From positions 1 through 37,147 of the forward strand of contig JBAXSP010000006.1 of assembly GCA_037130655.1 (NCBI GenBank): a stretch of DNA of 37,147 bases. Reading direction: 5' to 3'. Source of the DNA: a bacterium. GTDB lineage: Bacteria > Patescibacteriota > Minisyncoccia > Phycocordibacterales > UBA9973. The position numbers and the translations under genes are program-made. Positions 5,025 through 26,329 of this stretch are shown piece after piece (position 1 is the first letter of the stretch; the number at the start of each line of letters is the position of its first letter). A model generated the notes under the pieces. The model saw only the letters and a list, made by a program, of their open reading frames with translations, did not search any database and was not told the origin of the DNA.

Positions 5025-6898
<1,874 letters not shown>

Positions 6899-14768: not shown

Positions 14769-14881
14769 TTTCGCGACACAAGCTTTCCTTACAGGAACTG
14801 TACACCTTTTGGATATTTTATTTCGCTTCGCTTATAAAATATCTCAAAAGGTCTTGCGCTTGTGTTCCCACACAAGCTCAC
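14769..14881 (-). repeat. Dispersed structured repeat module, copy B
   Basis: Reverse complement aligns to 18240-18350 (CGCAAGACCTTTT...AAAAGGTGTAC...CTGTAAG...GTCGCGAAA). Confidence 0.85.
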
Positions 14882-14919
14882 CCTTGCAACCTACCAAATA
14901 GTAGACTACACTAGAGCAT

Positions 14920-15823: not shown

Positions 15824-18025
15824 ATGCAATTAGCCACCCCGATTACGAGTATTAGCCGACTGACAGACGACCAAAAAAAGGCACTTGGAAGACTTGGTCT
15901 ACACACTGTAGAAGACCTGCTTTATCACTTCCCTGCTCGGTATACTGATATTACTGATATCAAACACGTCTCTAACACAGAAGACGGTGAACGTGTCACT
16001 TTACTCGGAAAAATTCACGGGCTCAAAACAAAAAAGACCTTCAAAACAAAAACGGCTATGGCCGAAGGAGTTTTTGAAGATATCAGTGGGACAATCAAAG
16101 TTGTTTGGTTCCATCAACCATACCTGGCAAAAATGATAAAAGACGATACTATTGTCAAAATTTCTGGCATCATAACTGTTCATGAGCAATATGGTAAAAG
16201 TATACAAAATCCTGAAATAGAAAAATTGGATACGTTACCTATCGATATATCAGATTCATTGTTTGCAAACACTGACACACAACTCTCTTCTTTCGGATAC
16301 CCTGTCTATTCTGAAACACGTGGCATTACGTCGAAATGGATGTATCACACCATCCAAAAATTATTCAATCAAAATATTTTGGATAGTATTGAAGAATACA
16401 TTCCAGAACATATTTTGAAAATGTATTCATTGCCTGATATCAAAAAAGCATTGGTTTGGATTCACTCACCACAAAAAAAGGAACACGCTGAAGCAGCACG
16501 AAAACGATTTGCGTTTGAAGAAATCTTTTTGATTCAACTCATTCGACTCCAAGACAAAGCTCGCTTTGCACAAGAAAAAACCTACACCATCGAAAATACA
16601 AAAGTGCTCATCAAAGAATTTACCGACAAACTTCCCTTCCCTTTAACTGACGGACAAAATAATGCAATCAAAACAATTGCAGAAGATTTGGAAAAAGAAC
16701 ACCCAATGGCCAGACTTGTCGAAGGAGATGTTGGTAGTGGTAAAACACTCGTCGCCGCAGCTGCAGCATATGCAGTCGTCCACAACCGTCCGACAAGCAA
16801 CAAGACCCAAAAGGTTCAAACTTTTGGCAACTTGCAAGTTGCCTATATGGCACCAACTGAAATCTTGGCAACACAGCAATTTGAAAGTTTTATTGAATAT
16901 ATCAGACCAACCGGATTATCAGTTGCACTGATTACCAGTTCTGGTTGTAAAAAATTCCCATCGAAAGTAGCAAGTAACACCAAAGGTTGGACCGAAATAT
17001 CAAAAACACAATTATCAAAATGGATTGCAAATGGCGAAATTCCGGTCATTATCGGCACGCATTCACTCATCCAAAAATCAGTCAAATTCAAACATTTGGC
17101 TTTGGCTATTGTTGACGAACAACACCGCTTCGGAACTAAACAACGCCAAGCACTCGCCCGCAAAGAATCTGACAACAAAATCCACGCACCACACTTCCTC
17201 TCAATGACAGCGACCCCAATTCCCCGCACCCTCGCACTCACCCTCTATGGCGACCTTGATTTATCAATCATCGATGCGATGCCACCAGGAAGAAAACCAG
17301 TGGAAACAAAAATCATCTCACCAAATGCAAGAGAGAAAATGTATGCAGAAGTACGAAGAGAACTTGAAGCTGGGCGACAAGTCTATATTATTTGTCCGCG
17401 TATCAATGAACCTGATCCTGAACTTGAAATCAAATTACAACTCAAATCAGTTGAGACAGAAGCAAAGCGTTTGAAAAAAGATATTTTTCCAAAATATGAA
17501 ATAGACGTACTTCATTCAAAAATGAAAAAGGAAGAAAAAGACGAAACAATGAAAGCGTTCGCAAGAAAAGAAATCGATATTCTTGTAGCAACATCTGTGG
17601 TTGAAGTCGGTGTCAATGTACCAAATGCAACCGTCATCATAATCGAAGGAGCAGAACGTTTTGGTCTGTCTCAGTTGCACCAACTTCGTGGACGCGTGAT
17701 TCGTGGAACTCACCAACCATATTGTTTCTTGGTGCCGGATACCAAGAGCGACAAAACAAAAGACCGGTTGAATGCATTGGTCAATGCAAAGAATGGTTTT
17801 GAATTGGCAGAACTTGATCTCTCGCTTCGAGGCGCTGGAGAACTTTCTGGGTTCAAACAATGGGGTGTATCAGATCTCGCAATGGATGCAATCAAGAATA
17901 TCAAACTCGTTGAAATCGCTCGAAATGAAGCAAAAAAGATTATTGAAAAAGATTTGGATCTAATCACCTTCCCTCTGCTTGCTCAAAAAGCTCAAGCAAA
18001 AAATGTATTGCTTCATTTTGAATAA
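15824..18025 (+). CDS. recG: ATP-dependent DNA helicase RecG
   Basis: GDVGSGKT, MAPTEILA, DEQHRFG, MTATPIPRTL, AERFGLSQLHQLRGRV. Confidence 0.97.
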   Translation: MQLATPITSISRLTDDQKKALGRLGLHTVEDLLYHFPARYTDITDIKHVSNTEDGERVTLLGKIHGLKTKKTFKTKTAMAEGVFEDISGTIKVVWFHQPYLAKMIKDDTIVKISGIITVHEQYGKSIQNPEIEKLDTLPIDISDSLFANTDTQLSSFGYPVYSETRGITSKWMYHTIQKLFNQNILDSIEEYIPEHILKMYSLPDIKKALVWIHSPQKKEHAEAARKRFAFEEIFLIQLIRLQDKARFAQEKTYTIENTKVLIKEFTDKLPFPLTDGQNNAIKTIAEDLEKEHPMARLVEGDVGSGKTLVAAAAAYAVVHNRPTSNKTQKVQTFGNLQVAYMAPTEILATQQFESFIEYIRPTGLSVALITSSGCKKFPSKVASNTKGWTEISKTQLSKWIANGEIPVIIGTHSLIQKSVKFKHLALAIVDEQHRFGTKQRQALARKESDNKIHAPHFLSMTATPIPRTLALTLYGDLDLSIIDAMPPGRKPVETKIISPNAREKMYAEVRRELEAGRQVYIICPRINEPDPELEIKLQLKSVETEAKRLKKDIFPKYEIDVLHSKMKKEEKDETMKAFARKEIDILVATSVVEVGVNVPNATVIIIEGAERFGLSQLHQLRGRVIRGTHQPYCFLVPDTKSDKTKDRLNALVNAKNGFELAELDLSLRGAGELSGFKQWGVSDLAMDAIKNIKLVEIARNEAKKIIEKDLDLITFPLLAQKAQAKNVLLHFE

Positions 18026-18081
18026 TTGCTCAAAATACCGAGATACGGTAATATAAACGAGTAATTGAATTTATTGATTTT

Positions 18082-18155
18082 CCGCCTTTAGCTCAGTTGG
18101 TTAGAGCACAGAGCTTATACCTCTGCGGTCCTTGGTTCGAATCCAAGAAGGCGGA
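18082..18155 (+). tRNA. tRNA-Ile(UAU), CCA not encoded
   Basis: CCGCCTT/AAGGCGG acceptor stem, GCTC/GAGC D-stem, CAGAG-CTTATAC-CTCTG anticodon arm (TAT), CTTGG-TTCGAAT-CCAAG T-arm, discriminator A. Confidence 0.93.
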
Positions 18156-18376
18156 CAAGGTAGAAAATAATGAACTGCTTCATTATTTTCGACACTTGTC
18201 CGAGACGGAGGCGTAATTTTTCACCAGAAAAATAGCCGAGTGAGTTTGTGTCAAAAACACAAACGCAAGACCTTTTCAGAATTTTTGTGAGTGACAACGA
18301 AACAAAAAATCGAAAAGGTGTACGGGTTCTGTAAGAACGGGGTCGCGAAATTTTTCTGGTGAAAAATATTCGTGAC
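18156..18376 (+). repeat. tRNA-3'-associated structured element containing module copy A (18240-18350)
   Basis: Shares AATGAACTGCTTCATT, CGGAG, CGGGGTCGCGAA and ATTCGTGAC in the same order with 25947-26153. Confidence 0.8.
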
Positions 18377-18389
18377 GACAAAATTGAAA

Positions 18390-18422
18390 TTAAAAAATAT
18401 CCGCACTGCGGATATTTTTTAA
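18390..18422. terminator. Bidirectional terminator
   Basis: TTAAAAAATATCCGC-ACT-GCGGATATTTTTTAA. Confidence 0.75.
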
Positions 18423-21400
18423 TCTGTTGTAGCAGAAACATCTGCAGGTGGTGTACCTGAATCAGCAGGAGGAGCAGGTTCTTCTGTTGGCGGTGTCCCA
18501 CTATCTCCACCAGTACTTTCTTCTGCAGGAGGAGTTACGTCACCAGTATTATTACTACTACCTCCTCCGCTACTTTGGTTTGGTTGAACATTTTGTTGTT
18601 GAAGCAATTGTTGTAATTGTGTTTTTGTAATACACACATCATCCAAACACAATTCTTTTGTATGAACTTTACCGAAGAATACTTCTTGTAATGTATTGTT
18701 TGCATTTTCTAAGAATTGCTTCATGAGTGAGCCAAGTGATTGTGGTGTGTCAGTAGAAAGATCTGTCAGTGGAACAATCTTTAGATCAAGTTCTTTGATG
18801 GCATTGATTGCAGTGACAATCAAAGTCATTTGACTGACTTGTTTATATCCAAGCGCACCAGTATTTACTGCTTCTGGAATAAATTGTTCGACATTTTGAG
18901 CAATAACTCCACTGTAGAGAATTCCCCCGTCATTCAAATATGAATCAGCTTTCCATGAATATGTTTGCGGAACAATTCCCATGATAGCATCGAGTCCGCG
19001 AGTATATTCACTATGAATATCCTTCAATTTTTCATCAGAAGAACAAGAAACAATACCAGTACCGTTGGTTGCAAGCCCCACACAACCAACAAGTCCTGAA
19101 AATGTAATGGTTCCTGATGATGTAACACCAGCCGCTGCAGCAATAACACCAGAAGAGTTTACTTGGAATTGAGAAGATGCACCAACACTAAACAATGATA
19201 CTGGCGCAGATGTTCCAACACCAACGTTTCCACCGATAAATTGTGCGGCGTAGTTATTTGTTGCACCTGTTTGCGTGTTGACGGTGAGACCGTATGAGTT
19301 TGTGGCAGTACTTACTGCACCAGCTGCAATCAAAAGCGCATGAGAATTAGTGAGTGTTGTATTACTTCCTTTGATCGCACCACCTGCGATATACATATTT
19401 GCACCGTTAGTAACAGTAATAGCATTTGTTGAAGCCAGTGTTGGCATACCAAAAGCATTGGCTACAGCATTTGTCACTGTACCAGCAGCACCAGTACTTG
19501 TATCTGTATATGTTGAAGCTGTTGTGTTGATGTTGATTCCAGTAGTCCCCCATGCAGATGCAGACAAGTTTGCTCCAACATGCAACCACCCAGTAGGTAT
19601 TGTTGATGATCCGATTACTGTTTGACCAGTCCCGCGAACAGAAAAAACAGAACTACTGTTATTTTGACCATCAAATAAATAGTGTGATGAAGTAGCTCCA
19701 CTTGTGTTGAAGTTTGCTGCAATAACTCTAGTACTACTTGCGGCTTGTGTAGTTTCAAAATACCCACCATAGGCAATTGACGCAGTTCCTCCACCAGTAT
19801 TTCCAACACTACTATACACACCGTACCCAACTCTGCCGTTCACTGTTGTTGCAACAAAATATCCTCCATAACTGTTAAATGAAGTATTAGCTAGTCCATA
19901 CACAGCAATGGCAGTTCCAGGAGAATTAGTACTTGCAATCGCAGTACTATGGATACCGTAGTTAGTACCAGATGATGTTACCACCTGGTTGTCCACCTTA
20001 AGTCCATACGTTGTTGCACCAGGACTACCGTCAGCCAACACAATGTTAGCTGCTCGTAATTTTGTTGATGATGCAGATGCAGTAACTGCAACGTCCAAAC
20101 TATATGCAGGTGTTGCTGTTCCAATACCAACGTTTCCTCCGATAAATTGCGCAGCGTAGTTATTCGTTGCACCTGTTTGTGCGTTGACAGTGAGACCGTA
20201 TGAGTTTGTGGCAGTACTTACTGCACTAGCTGAGATAAGTAAGGCATGAGTGTTTGTGATAGTTGCGTTTGTACTTTTGATTGGAGCACCAGTTATAGCT
20301 AAAGTTGCAGCATCGGTGATAGTTGAAGAACCGACAAAACTATATGTTGGTGCTTGAATCAAGAAAGCTCTTTGTGTTGTAAGTGCTCCCGTGTTGAACT
20401 GCACTGTTCGAGCTAGGTTGAAGTTTACATCAGTAGCTTCTGTTGAAGTTGCGAGTGCAAGATGAGCAGCACCAGTGAGGGTAAATGCTGTTGGGCTCGT
20501 TGATGTAGCTGCTACACCTTGTGTGAATGTTGTATTACCTGTGCCGTCAATTCTCATACGAACAGCAGGTGTCGCACCAGTAACAATACCGACAGAAGTA
20601 GTACTAAGTGAACGTGATTGCAATACAAGGTCTCCAAAAGAAGAACCGTTAACACCGTTCGAACCATAGATAATAGGACCGTTAGATGACGTATATATTC
20701 CAGAAGTTACTAATCCTGTCCACTTTGTTGTGTTTGGTGTTGTATAAAAAGTAATTGCCCCACTCATTCCAAAATCATATGGAGAGTTCGGTGAAGTACT
20801 TGTACCAAAAAACATAGAAGGAGTGTTTGCTCCGTTTAAAATAGTCAAAGCTCTTTGCGGAGTAGTTCCGGACATTGCACCCAAGATAAGTGAAGTTGAT
20901 CGACCCATGATCGCCCCACCTTCAGCAGTACCGCTTGAACGACTCCAATACCCAACCTTAACACCATCAGTGCCACTTGAACGATAAAAATCACCAACTG
21001 GATAGAATGTTTCAGCCCCTGACATTGTTGCTGCATCCAAAAATTGAGCGGCCAAGTTTGTTGTCGCACCCGTTGGTGCATTGACGGTAAGTCCGTACGC
21101 CGCGGTTGCAGTAGATACTGCGCCGGCTTGCACTAAGATTCCATGAGAACTAGTGATTGTCGCATTGGTGCCTTTGATTGGAGCACCAGTTACCGCAAAT
21201 GTTGCAGCATCAGTAATCGTCGAAGCACCGACAAATGAATAGGTTGGAGCTTGGATACGAAATGCACGTTGTGTGGTTAGTGCACCGGTATTGAATTGTA
21301 CGATGCGAGCTAGGTTGAAGTTAACATCACTTGCTTCAGTTGAAGTTGCGAGTGTTGTATGTGTTGCACCAGTGAGTGTAAATGCTACCGGACTACCCGA

Positions 21401-25484: not shown

Positions 25485-25552
25485 TTAGTCGTTAGTTATT
25501 AGTCATTTAGCAGATTACCTAAGTGACTAACAACCATAAGACTATCGACTAA
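25485..25552. repeat. Degenerate TTAGTCA heptamers in inverted arrangement
   Basis: TTAGTCG TTAGTTA TTAGTCA ... TGACTAA CAACCAT AAGACTA TCGACTAA. Confidence 0.65.
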
Positions 25553-25560
25553 AATAATTG

Positions 25561-25946
25561 GGGGATGCCAGGCATCGACAATGATGATTAGCCTTTTGGT
25601 GCATACCAAGCTCGTACGCAACTTGCAAAACTACGTACAAAAACTGAAATGCAAAAAACTCTTTTGCAGTAAAGTCTCCATTCTTCGGAGTGAACGACTT
25701 TGCTTTTGCTACTGCTTAATTGCGTAGTATGTTCGTCTATTTGATCCATAATAAAATAGCGCGAGCATCATATCATTATGGTAAGAAATAATTGCGTCCG
25801 AAATTATTTCCGACAATGAAGGAATCGAGTGATTGCTGGTTTGTTGTTTTGATACGACAATCATTCTAAAAAAACCAAAATAACTATGTATGTAGATTCC
25901 ATCTGCGCATCATCATTGCACTGGGGTTCGAATCCCCACATCTCCA
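25561..25946 (+). ncRNA. ssrA: tmRNA
   Basis: GGGGATG/CATCTCC-A acceptor stem with G3.U pair, TCGAC motif, TGGGG-TTCGAAT-CCCCA T-arm, tag frame 25651-25719 AKNSFAVKSPFFGVNDFAFATA*. Confidence 0.95.
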
Positions 25947-26153
25947 CATTTTTAAAACGCACAATATTTGTGCGTTTTAAAAATGTGGAGATGTGAACGA
26001 ATGAACTGCTTCATTCGTGTGGGATTCGAACGGCCGGAGCCATAGTTGCCTTGCAACAGGCGAGGCGGGGTCGCGAACACTTAGTAGAATTGGAGCTAAA
26101 GCGAACAATTATACTTAGTGATTCGTGACTCAAATCCGCCCACCATCTCCACA
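25947..26153 (+). repeat. tmRNA-3'-associated structured element
   Basis: 28-bp perfect inverted repeat 25937-25964/25968-25995, motifs shared with 18156-18376, and a direct copy CATCTCCACA at 26144-26153. Confidence 0.8.
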
Positions 26154-26155
26154 AA

Positions 26156-26190
26156 TTAAAAATACCCTTATAAATTAAGGGTATTTTTAA
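26156..26190 (+). terminator. Terminator after the ssrA locus
   Basis: TTAAAAATACCCTTA-TAAAT-TAAGGGTATTTTTAA. Confidence 0.7.
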
Positions 26191-26205
26191 TGTTTTGTAC
26201 TACTA

Positions 26206-26234
26206 TTGACATAAATATTATAATATGCTATACT
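26206..26234 (+). promoter_or_regulatory. sigma70 promoter
   Basis: TTGACA-17 nt-TATACT with extended -10 TG. Confidence 0.75.
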
Positions 26235-26329
26235 ATTATCAGATTTGAAATGACTTAATTGTCTGTTGTTGGGTTACCATAGTTCCCTTATAGGATTTAT
26301 GGCAACCCAAAAAACAAAACAAATAAATT

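What the first reader, a model, noticed from the sequence alone, without database searches (positions are those of the whole stretch)
18152..18376. Shared element attached to both tRNA-Ile and tmRNA that pairs with the host RNA's 3' end
Seen: both loci have, in order, AATGAA-CTGC-TTCATT (18169, 26000), CGGAG, CGAG, CGGGGTCGCGAA (18338, 26066), a variable hairpin and ATTCGTGAC (18368, 26121), then a terminator. Each also carries sequence complementary to its own host's end: CGGACAAG/CTTGTCCG (18152/18195) here, and a longer match at tmRNA. Neither host gene encodes CCA. Inference: a tRNA-targeting miniature element or co-transcribed trailer that controls tRNA folding or 3' processing. This is my best candidate for an undescribed system.
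Basis: partly seen in the sequence, partly recalled or inferred. Interest (0 to 1): 0.85.

Follow-up and report, generated by a model that had tools for sequence, protein, structure and literature searches.

The report
Structured insertion elements behind tRNA genes
Both trailers belong to a widespread, apparently undescribed family of small gene-less structured elements that sit behind tRNA and tmRNA genes of tiny-genome (CPR) bacteria, each carrying an antisense copy and a second sense copy of its host gene's end.

Summary
All motifs lie at the stated coordinates, and Rfam has no match. The two trailers are copies of one family, which I call type 1. It is a conserved three-way-junction fold read on the tRNA-sense strand: 91% of cells pair against 70% in shuffles, and one G.U pair is invariant. 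Its closing helix is an antisense copy (AS) of the host's 3' part paired with a second sense copy (S2).

In this 630-kb genome, 10 of the 11 best matches lie directly 3' of a tRNA, tmRNA or tRNA-like gene. The family was found in 36 of 41 relatives and in Saccharibacteria and Paceibacterota assemblies.

Insertion occurs at two fixed points, the T loop (55/56) and the acceptor end (71/72). AS reaches exactly 2 nt further than S2.

Newer units lie next to the gene and decayed older ones lie downstream. Close relatives differ: the same-genus genome G001 has tRNA-Ile(UAU) with an encoded CCA and no element.

The layout of regenerated gene end plus displaced fragment is that of elements integrated into tRNA genes, but here the unit is 130-250 bp and has no integrase. 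The best reading is an ORF-less, single-strand-structured insertion element. Its enzyme and intermediate are unknown. A processing role for the trailer is not excluded.

The parts
18082..18156 (+). tRNA-Ile(UAU), host gene 1. Its last bases are the regenerated end (S1); no CCA is encoded.
   Evidence: ARAGORN; Rfam tRNA 70.4 bits
18152..18202 (+). Hairpin formed by the host end CGGACAAG (18152-18159) and the antisense CTTGTCCG (18195-18202). The conserved AACUGCUU-loop hairpin (hp, 18163-18190) sits at its tip.
   Evidence: sequence; predicted fold; hairpin module shared with other copies
18203..18231 (+). Type 1 core, 5' part: junction A, helix P2 with the GA motif, and hairpin AGACGGAGGC..GCCGAGT.
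   Evidence: alignment with intact copies; weak R1 match 18191-18244
18232..18337 (+). Nested type 2 element (GTGAG-hairpin-CGCAAGACCUUUUC..GAAAAGGUGUAC-hairpin CUGUAAG) that interrupts the type 1 core between P2 and P3.
   Evidence: nhmmer 18229-18343, E 8.9e-22; paralogous DNA contig skips 18240-18339
18338..18376 (+). Type 1 core, 3' part: junction GGG and helix P3 (GUCGCGAA..hairpin..UUCGUGAC).
   Evidence: R1 match 18324-18386, 43.5 bits
18377..18381 (+). S2: second sense copy of the host end (GACAA = nt 72-76), taken to be the displaced fragment.
   Evidence: 3'-end register rule
18387..18425 (.). Palindromic terminator shared with the convergent 1467-aa ORF.
25561..25949 (+). tmRNA, host gene 2. 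S1 runs from T-loop C at 25929 to the 3' end.
   Evidence: Rfam 121.3 bits; RNA contig 25568-25947 at 100% identity
25949..25983 (+). A/T-flanked hairpin (N) that, with S1 and AS, forms a perfect 27-bp palindrome. It does not pass the terminator scan's T-tract rule.
25984..26030 (+). Antisense of the tmRNA acceptor strand (25984-25995), the hp hairpin (25998-26017), and antisense of the T arm and T loop ending in TCGAA (26019-26030).
26031..26129 (+). Type 1 core (P2, GGG, P3), intact.
   Evidence: R1 match 26020-26139, 41.5 bits
26130..26153 (+). S2: diverged second copy of the tmRNA end (TCAAATCCGCCCACCATCTCCACA). A decayed orthologue is seen in G002.
26155..26191 (+). Intrinsic terminator after S2.
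14782..14894 (-). Free-standing type 2 element in an intergenic region of the window. It belongs to the same family as the copy nested at tRNA-Ile.
   Evidence: nhmmer E 1.2e-27; sequence

Best explanation
The two trailers are copies of an ORF-less insertion element of about 130-250 bp that is specific for the 3' part of tRNA and tmRNA genes. Each unit consists of: (i) a copy of the gene's distal part (S1), which completes the gene; (ii) a hairpin, often terminator-like; (iii) an antisense copy of that same part (AS), often split by a conserved AACUGCUU-loop hairpin; and (iv) a conserved core. The displaced original gene end (S2) follows the unit. AS and S2, or AS and S1, form the closing helix of a three-way junction whose other arms are P2 (a covarying G-N-C helix, a bulged G and tandem G.A pairs) and P3 (an invariant G.U pair and a bulged A). 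Shown: the architecture, its strand-specific single-strand fold, two fixed insertion points (55/56 and 71/72) with AS exactly 2 nt longer than S2, stacking of newer units next to the gene, and differences between close relatives. Inferred: the active form is single-stranded (RNA or ssDNA). In that form, AS paired with the sense copy rebuilds a double-stranded image of the target, which serves for target recognition or strand exchange, as in folded single-strand attachment sites. Integration splits the gene and the element restores it. The enzyme (a host or trans-acting recombinase, or RNA catalysis) is not identified.
For: 1. Family and enrichment. Ten of 37 tRNA and tmRNA genes carry the core motif downstream. 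Ten of the 11 best R1 matches in the genome are directly 3' of a tRNA, tmRNA or tRNA-like gene. Forty-six of 66 regex cores in all loci have a same-strand tRNA ending within 450 nt upstream.
2. Fold. On 65 aligned matches, 91.1% of cells pair against 69.8% in shuffles (0 of 500 shuffles reach it), and slid controls give 35-46%. Twenty-six of 30 pairs change on both sides. The middle pair of P2 is CG 28, AU 25, GC 4, GU 3. One G.U pair is present in 64 of 64 rows and another position is GC 30 / GU 30, so the fold reads on the tRNA-sense strand.
3. Integration signature. S1 and S2 are direct repeats that run from the insertion point to the gene's end. S2 matches the host over 18-25 nt in 9 of the 46 loci. 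The Islander paper uses this same 'regenerated target plus displaced fragment' mark (PMC4383910, passages read). The layout also occurs at a protein gene, where the stop codon is restored, and in mirror form at msrB.
4. Fixed geometry. AS ends 2 nt beyond the start of S2 in 30 of 46 loci, in two registers.
5. Turnover. Layered remnants lie downstream of intact units. A type 2 element is nested in the window's type 1 copy. Tandem units occur. G001 has tRNA-Ile(UAU) with CCA and no element.
6. The closing helix P1 is the least maintained (76.7% paired, against 95% or more for the other helices), as expected if it matters mainly at insertion.
7. The tmRNA RNA contig uses S1.
Against: No mobilising enzyme was found. 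The genome has no Y1 transposase and no TnpB and no serine recombinase. It has one Xer-like tyrosine recombinase (my reading of its sequence) and one UG19 reverse transcriptase, a class described as untemplated. It is not explained how S1 and AS come to match each new host. Near-identical cores at six different tRNAs need either retargeting with re-templating or gene conversion among cores. Some tRNA / type / register combinations recur in distant genomes (Val-UAC, Glu-UUC, Ile-UAU, Cys), and unpaired core bases are nearly invariant across phylum-level distance. Both fit a host function as well as mobility. No empty-versus-filled pair with exact boundaries was obtained in near-identical strains. 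No circular or excised form was seen.
Confidence: 0.5

Rival explanations
1. Functional co-transcribed trailer. The element is a host device acting on the precursor RNA. AS masks the tRNA's 3' strand until processing, or builds a long duplex or a tRNA-like minihelix that recruits RNase III, RNase Z, RNase P or the CCA-adding enzyme. S2 acts as the competing partner that releases the tRNA.
For: The element is always co-oriented with the host. No + strand terminator lies between tRNA-Ile and the element. Predicted read-through folds pair S1 with AS. The family is present in 36 of 41 relatives and in several CPR lineages. Unpaired bases are nearly invariant. C-to-T changes in AS keep pairing as G.U, as at tRNA-Trp.
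Against: G001 has tRNA-Ile(UAU) without the element, and 15 or so of the 38 genes here have none. Copies are decayed, truncated, nested and stacked. The same layout occurs after a protein gene. P1 is poorly maintained. The tmRNA RNA contig stops at the mature end (contigs cannot show absence).
Confidence: 0.2
2. Self-processing RNA element, either a retrozyme-like or viroid-like circular RNA or a miniature intron. The core would be an undescribed ribozyme that cuts or joins at its borders (A|core, core GUGAC|C). Genomic copies would arise by reverse transcription or recombination of unit-length RNAs made of S, hairpin, AS and core.
For: The three-way junction has an invariant G.U pair and conserved junction bases. 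Tandem head-to-tail units with a period of about 100-160 nt occur in several genomes. The right border of S1 and S2 coincides with the tRNA's 3' end. The two tRNAs that encode CCA, Phe and Glu, both carry elements.
Against: No known ribozyme family matches. Reverse transcriptase was found in only 18 of 41 relatives, whereas the element is in 36 of 41. Splicing is not needed because S1 completes the gene, and the tmRNA RNA uses S1. No cleavage or circle was shown.
Confidence: 0.15
3. Scars of ordinary integrase-borne islands or phages. Repeated integration and deletion at tRNA genes would leave attachment-site remnants, and palindromes would then grow by template switching.
For: Large serine recombinases are found in 26 of 41 relatives, and islands carrying them abut tRNA 3' ends in G001 and G002. 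The 2-nt offset equals the stagger of serine recombinases (recalled chemistry). Stacked remnants occur.
Against: The conserved, covarying core with strand-specific G.U pairs is not expected of scars. No type 1 core was seen in the first 700 nt behind tRNA-Asn in G002 or the first 300 nt in G001, and no second copy of the tRNA end turned up in 13-14 kb (the far junction was not found). G000 has 15 matches and no serine recombinase. Genomes without that enzyme average more copies (about 8.0 against 4.8; my arithmetic; relatives are not independent). Only 1 of 40 viral-contig hits is a true copy.
Confidence: 0.1

Closest known systems
Genomic islands and prophages integrated in tRNA and tmRNA genes (the Islander principle; PMC4383910, abstract and passages read)
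   Same: The gene is split and then regenerated by element sequence. The displaced 3' fragment marks the far end. Newer units lie next to the gene. Crossover points lie in the T loop and near the acceptor end. tmRNA is also a target.
   Different: The units are 130-250 bp with no integrase and no ORF. They carry an antisense copy of the target and a conserved folded core. Up to about 20 occupied genes occur in a 630-kb genome.
Folded single-strand attachment sites (CTX-phage attP used by Xer; integron attC). Recalled, not tested here.
   Same: Inverted copies of a target-like sequence pair within one strand to make the recombination substrate. Bulged bases are conserved. Structure is conserved more than sequence in the variable arms. 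Arrays occur.
   Different: The target is a tRNA gene, not dif or attI. The fold is a three-way junction with a strongly conserved sequence. No integron integrase or phage context was seen. Use of ssDNA is not shown.
MITE-like bacterial repeats transcribed into hairpin RNAs (Correia, BOX, REP and similar). Recalled.
   Same: They are multi-copy, ORF-less and modular, with hairpin-rich structure, nested insertions and co-transcription with neighbouring genes.
   Different: The terminal arms are derived from the target rather than intrinsic to the element. The direct repeat runs to the gene's end. There is strict specificity for tRNA 3' ends and for orientation.
Guide-bearing mobile RNAs (group II intron EBS/IBS pairing, IS110 bridge RNA). 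Recalled.
   Same: A segment of the element is complementary to its target, and copy-specific pairing tracks the host.
   Different: The core is far smaller (62-140 nt). No intron-encoded protein or DEDD recombinase is associated. No Rfam intron match was found.

Membership tests
tDNA-integrated genomic island | Regenerated target gene plus a displaced 3' fragment in the same orientation | tested here: met
   S1 and S2 at both window loci. S2 matches the host over 18-25 nt in 9 of the 46 loci.
tDNA-integrated genomic island | An integrase gene inside the unit | tested here: not met
   The units are 130-250 bp without an ORF. G000 has no serine recombinase and only one tyrosine recombinase, which I read as Xer-like and which lies elsewhere.
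tDNA-integrated genomic island | Crossover at the anticodon loop, T loop or T/acceptor junction | tested here: inconclusive
   Borders lie at 55/56 (T loop) and 71/72 (inside the acceptor strand). One anticodon-loop remnant lies upstream of tRNA-Gln(CUG). A crossover as such was not shown.
MITE | Element-intrinsic terminal inverted repeats and a short fixed target duplication | tested here: not met
   The arms (AS and S2) differ by host and equal host sequence. The repeat length runs to the gene's end.
Known self-cleaving ribozymes, group I/II introns and other Rfam families | Match to the family's covariance model | tested here: not met
   Nothing but tRNA and tmRNA scored above chance in 17900-18500 and 25500-26300 at E up to 10, nor in three further loci.
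tRNA intron (spliced insertion) | The mature RNA lacks the inserted stretch and joins the flanks | tested here: not met
   The tmRNA RNA contig is colinear with the genome through S1 to 25947, and S1 alone completes each gene. Only one RNA and one sample were seen.
Folded single-strand attachment site (CTX attP or attC type) | Intrastrand pairing builds the recombination site; strand-specific bulged bases; a cognate tyrosine recombinase | tested here: inconclusive
   Pairing, G.U pairs and conserved bulges are met. The recombinase and the use of ssDNA cannot be tested with these tools.
IS200/IS605-type elements and their guide RNAs | A TnpA(Y1) or TnpB gene in the genome | tested here: not met
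   PF01797 and PF07282 gave no match in G000 (completeness 100).

The most novel reading that the evidence does not exclude
This would be a new class of protein-less mobile element of CPR bacteria. A 60-140-nt three-way-junction nucleic acid (RNA or ssDNA) would home into tRNA and tmRNA genes at the T loop or acceptor end. It would use a target-derived antisense arm to rebuild a double-stranded image of its target, and would repair the gene it splits by carrying a fresh gene end and terminator. The core might be a new ribozyme or a new kind of folded attachment site served by a housekeeping enzyme.
Probability: 0.3. Interest if true: 0.9.

Novelty: new variant of a known kind. Interest (0 to 1): 0.8.

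Why it matters
CPR bacteria have very small genomes, yet here about 20 of 38 tRNA-type genes carry these units. The core is conserved across lineages labelled Saccharibacteria and Paceibacterota in public records.

If the units are mobile, they are a compact, gene-less system that finds one site class (the tRNA T loop or acceptor end), inserts there and rebuilds the gene. That would bear on how integration into tRNA genes arose, and it could offer a small programmable targeting module.

If they are host devices, they would be an unknown layer of tRNA and tmRNA 3'-end handling in a major bacterial radiation.

There are practical consequences either way. The units break assemblies: two contigs here end inside the same element, and the close relative G003 shows only 18 tRNA matches in 30 contigs. 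They mislead tRNA and tmRNA end calling. And they provide a covariance model (R1) that marks a widespread RNA-like motif absent from Rfam.

Tried and rejected
Rfam gathering scan of the whole window, and E-value scans of both loci and three further loci: only rRNA, tRNA and tmRNA; all other rows are chance-level hairpin hits.

IS200/IS605 route: no Y1 transposase and no TnpB in G000.

Reverse transcriptase route. The single RT, which lies next to tRNA-Gln(UUG) and its type 2 element, is UG19 (E 2.9e-167 in PADLOC). Mestre et al. 2022 (PMC9226505, passages read) place UG19 in Class 1 and describe it as fused to, or co-located with, a domain of unknown function. That Class 1 enzymes synthesise untemplated DNA comes from the abstract listing of PMC13174585. 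No second copy of the tRNA-Gln end was found beyond the RT gene. RT is present in only 18 of 41 relatives. I rejected it as the general driver.

Serine recombinase route: none in G000. In G001 and G002, no type 1 core was seen in the first 300-700 nt behind tRNA-Asn next to the recombinase genes, and no second copy of the tRNA end within 13-14 kb.

Phage origin: 1 of 40 viral-contig pattern hits is a true copy.

Tandem-inversion duplication, or replication of a hairpin-capped break: considered and set aside. The hairpin after S1 differs from the terminator after S2, and its loop is not palindromic.

Intron reading of free-standing type 2 copies at the ends of ORFs (a Cys-rich protein, topA): reading frames could continue after removal, but truncation by insertion explains them equally well. 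Left open.

RNA evidence: no RNA holder was listed for the trailers. Two metatranscriptome runs of the source sample gave only a tmRNA contig and a chimeric tRNA-like contig.

First host-tracking statistic (6-mer cover): too noisy. It was replaced by the longest exact match to the acceptor strand.

Literature: searches found nothing describing such elements.

Full report
**1. What is at the two loci**

The window is a whole contig (C6) of a 630,524-bp, 9-contig genome with 38% G+C. tRNA-Ile(TAT) lies at 18082-18156 and tmRNA at 25561-25949 (Rfam, 121 bits).

Behind tRNA-Ile the order is:
- the host end CGGACAAG (18152-18159);
- a hairpin with the loop AACUGCUU (18163-18190);
- the antisense CTTGTCCG (18195-18202);
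- the core (18203-18376);
- GACAA (18377-18381), a second copy of nt 72-76 of the tRNA;
- a palindromic terminator (18387-18425).

Behind tmRNA the order is:
- an A/T-flanked hairpin (25949-25983);
- the antisense of the acceptor strand (25984-25995);
- the same hairpin module (25998-26017);
- the antisense of the T arm and T loop, ending in TCGAA (26019-26030);
- the core (26031-26129);
- a diverged second copy of the tmRNA end, TCAAATCCGCCCACCATCTCCACA (26130-26153);
- a terminator (26155-26191).

Neither gene encodes CCA. The tRNA-Ile core is longer because a different element is nested between its second and third helices. nhmmer places this type 2 element at 18229-18343 with E 8.9e-22. 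A paralogous DNA contig from the source sample skips 18240-18339.

**2. It is a family, and it is tied to tRNA genes**

ARAGORN finds 36 tRNA genes in the genome. The core motif lies downstream of 10 of the 37 tRNA and tmRNA genes examined. Of 9 genome-wide motif places, 8 are behind such genes.

Reading the 330 nt behind every gene shows one common layout with at least four core types:

gene end (S1) - hairpin - antisense of the acceptor strand - hairpin - antisense of the T arm ending in TCGAA - core - second sense copy from T-loop C56 onward (S2) - terminator.

Two further core types appear in G001 and G002. By my reading, about 22 of 38 genes carry some form, counting tmRNA and a 51-nt tRNA-like RNA on contig C3.

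I built a covariance model, R1. It was made from 13 minimal-length copies chosen out of 54 candidates. In the genome it gives 26 matches at E up to 1. Ten of the 11 best are directly 3' of a tRNA, tmRNA or tRNA-like gene. The eleventh is a free-standing relative with its own closing helix.

Antisense matches of 9 nt or more to the host's own acceptor strand occur at 9 of 38 genes, and no non-host pairing exceeds 8 nt.

**3. Distribution**

R1 matches at E up to 1e-4 occur in 36 of 41 genomes of the same order, with 0-17 per genome and many adjacent pairs.

Its low-G+C hits carry titles such as Saccharibacteria, Paceibacterota, Nomurabacteria, Zambryskibacteria, Adlerbacteria and Parcubacteria. 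In nearly all of these the core lies right behind a tRNA gene. High-G+C hits are chance. Only 1 of 40 viral-contig hits is a true copy.

Rfam has no match. Four literature searches found no description.

**4. The fold**

I aligned 65 matches to R1; 64 are distinct. The alignment is fitted to the model, which favours the structure.
- 91.1% of cells form standard pairs, against 69.8% in shuffles (0 of 500 shuffles reach it) and 35-46% when partners are slid.
- 26 of 30 pairs change on both sides.
- The middle pair of the short helix P2 is CG 28, AU 25, GC 4, GU 3, with none unpaired.
- In P3 one G.U pair is present in 64 of 64 rows and another position is GC 30 / GU 30. The fold therefore reads on the tRNA-sense strand.
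- Nearly invariant unpaired bases are a bulged G, a tandem G.A motif (GGAG opposite CGAG), the junction GGG and a bulged A.

The closing helix P1 is made of the antisense arm and S2. It is the least maintained helix, at 76.7% paired.

**5. Geometry**

In 46 loci with an upstream same-strand tRNA, the antisense arm abuts the core's first A and S2 abuts the core's last C. In 30 of the 46, the antisense arm reaches exactly 2 nt further into the gene than S2.

There are two registers:
- T loop: the antisense arm extends to T54 and S2 starts at C56.
- Acceptor end: the antisense arm extends to nt 70 and S2 starts at nt 72. The window's tRNA-Ile copy is in this register.

The remaining 16 loci have short or decayed arms. 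The same rule holds at a protein gene on contig C2. There, S1 restores the last codons and the stop codon, and S2 is the displaced original end. At msrB the mirror image occurs: a displaced 5' gene fragment, a type 2 element, then the full gene.

**6. Dynamics**

Units stack, with intact ones next to the gene and truncated older ones, each with its own S2 remnant, further downstream. Examples are Lys-UUU, Trp, Arg-GCG and Leu-UAA here and tmRNA in G001.

G001 and G002 are in the same genus, and most of their tRNA genes are identical. Even so, they differ in hairpins, in the presence of the hp module and in core type at many tRNAs. At tmRNA, G002 has type 1, while G001 has another type inserted in front of two type 1 tails.

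G001's tRNA-Ile(UAU) encodes CCA and has no element at all.

Six copies in this genome, sitting at different hosts, share almost identical apical hairpins. Two contigs end inside the same element.

**7. Expression**

One metatranscriptome contig from the source sample covers tmRNA 25568-25947 at 100% identity and stops at the mature end. S1 is therefore the end in use. Contigs cannot show absence of the trailer.

At tRNA-Ile no + strand terminator precedes the element. Minimum-energy folds of read-through RNAs pair the host end with the antisense arm (z -9.5 and -15.4).

**8. Enzymes looked for**

| Enzyme family | Result |
|---|---|
| Y1 transposase | none in G000 |
| TnpB | none in G000 |
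| Tyrosine recombinase | one in G000, Xer-like by my reading of its sequence |
| Reverse transcriptase | one UG19 in G000; RT in 18 of 41 relatives |
| Serine recombinase | none in G000; present in 26 of 41 relatives |

UG19 is a Class 1 group (PMC9226505, passages read); the abstract listing of PMC13174585 describes Class 1 synthesis as untemplated. Islands with serine recombinase genes abut tRNA 3' ends in G001 and G002. In the stretches I inspected there (300-700 nt behind tRNA-Asn) I saw no type 1 core, and I found no second copy of the tRNA end within 13-14 kb.

Genomes without a serine recombinase match carry more R1 matches on average, about 8.0 against 4.8. This is my own arithmetic, and relatives are not independent.

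**9. Interpretation**

A regenerated gene end plus a displaced fragment, with the direct repeat ending at the gene's end, is the accepted mark of elements integrated into tRNA and tmRNA genes (PMC4383910, passages read). So are stacking next to the gene and crossover-like points in the T loop and near the acceptor end.

Three things are new here:
- the unit is 130-250 bp with no ORF;
- it carries an antisense image of its target;
- it has a conserved, strand-specific three-way junction.

I therefore read the trailers as ORF-less insertion elements whose active form is single-stranded. In that form, the antisense arm paired with the sense copy rebuilds the target duplex. This is an inference by analogy with folded single-strand attachment sites, which I recall rather than tested.

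Two points remain open: the enzyme, and how the arms come to match each new host. Gene conversion among cores and correction within the S1-hairpin-AS palindrome are possible routes, but I tested neither.

A host role in precursor handling (confidence 0.2), a self-processing RNA (0.15) and scars of ordinary islands (0.1) remain as rivals.

**10. Verdict**

The 'miniature tRNA-targeting element' reading is supported; the 'controls folding or processing' reading is not shown. As far as my Rfam scans and four literature searches reach, the family is undescribed. It is widespread in CPR bacteria and unusual in design.

Noticed in passing
window 5025-6898 (-): The 16S rRNA gene spans 1874 nt against a 1533-position model. 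At least one 60-nt insertion lies near model position 80. The rest of the extra length was not located. No R1 or type 2 match falls inside the gene.
   Followed up: partly
window 14782-14894 (-): A free-standing type 2 element (GTGAG-hairpin-CGCAAGACC..CCAAAAGGUGUAC-hairpin CUGUAAG) lies in an intergenic region. Seven such copies in the genome are not next to tRNAs, and some sit at the very end of ORFs.
   Followed up: partly
G000 C3:107300-107360 (L034): A 51-nt tRNA-like RNA with an acceptor stem and T arm but no anticodon arm is missed by ARAGORN and Rfam. It carries the best-scoring type 1 element and a perfect 20-nt second copy of its end.
   Followed up: partly
G000 C1:157450-157760: A 5' fragment of a tRNA-Gln gene, cut in the anticodon loop and followed by the AACUGCUU hairpin, lies upstream of the intact tRNA-Gln(CUG). 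A remnant of the old acceptor end lies downstream. This looks like a third insertion register, at the anticodon loop.
   Followed up: no
G000 C2:99512-101716 (-) (L009): A 734-aa UG19-type reverse transcriptase (PADLOC E 2.9e-167) lies directly behind tRNA-Gln(UUG) and its type 2 element. This is probably a defence gene on a small island.
   Followed up: partly
G000 C2:77300-78250 (-): msrB is preceded by a diverged duplicate of its first 18 codons, which ends exactly where a type 2 element begins.
   Followed up: partly
G000 C4:52206, C4:11782, C4:43947, C3:67709, C2:143356, C1:124566, C5:21565: Free-standing relatives of the type 1 core have their own 8-20-bp closing helix of variable sequence. 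They share the genome-specific hairpin UUUUUCACCAGAAAAA.
   Followed up: no
G000 contig ends C1:166155 and C7:17121: Both contigs end inside the same element sequence, behind tRNA-Asp and tRNA-Ser(UGA). The elements therefore break the assembly, and more copies may be unassembled.
   Followed up: no
G000 C3:110724-110811: ARAGORN calls a tRNA-Ser with anticodon ACT, and the same call appears in G001 and G002. This anticodon is unusual and was not examined.
   Followed up: no
relatives G001-G040: Large serine recombinases (440-615 aa) are common: 26 of 41 genomes, up to 6 per genome. Several lie next to tRNA genes. Genomes lacking them tend to have more type 1 copies.
   Followed up: partly
whole genome, behind tRNA genes: Most terminators behind the tRNA genes read are perfect palindromes with symmetric A and T tracts (bidirectional form), including behind genes that have no element.
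   Followed up: no
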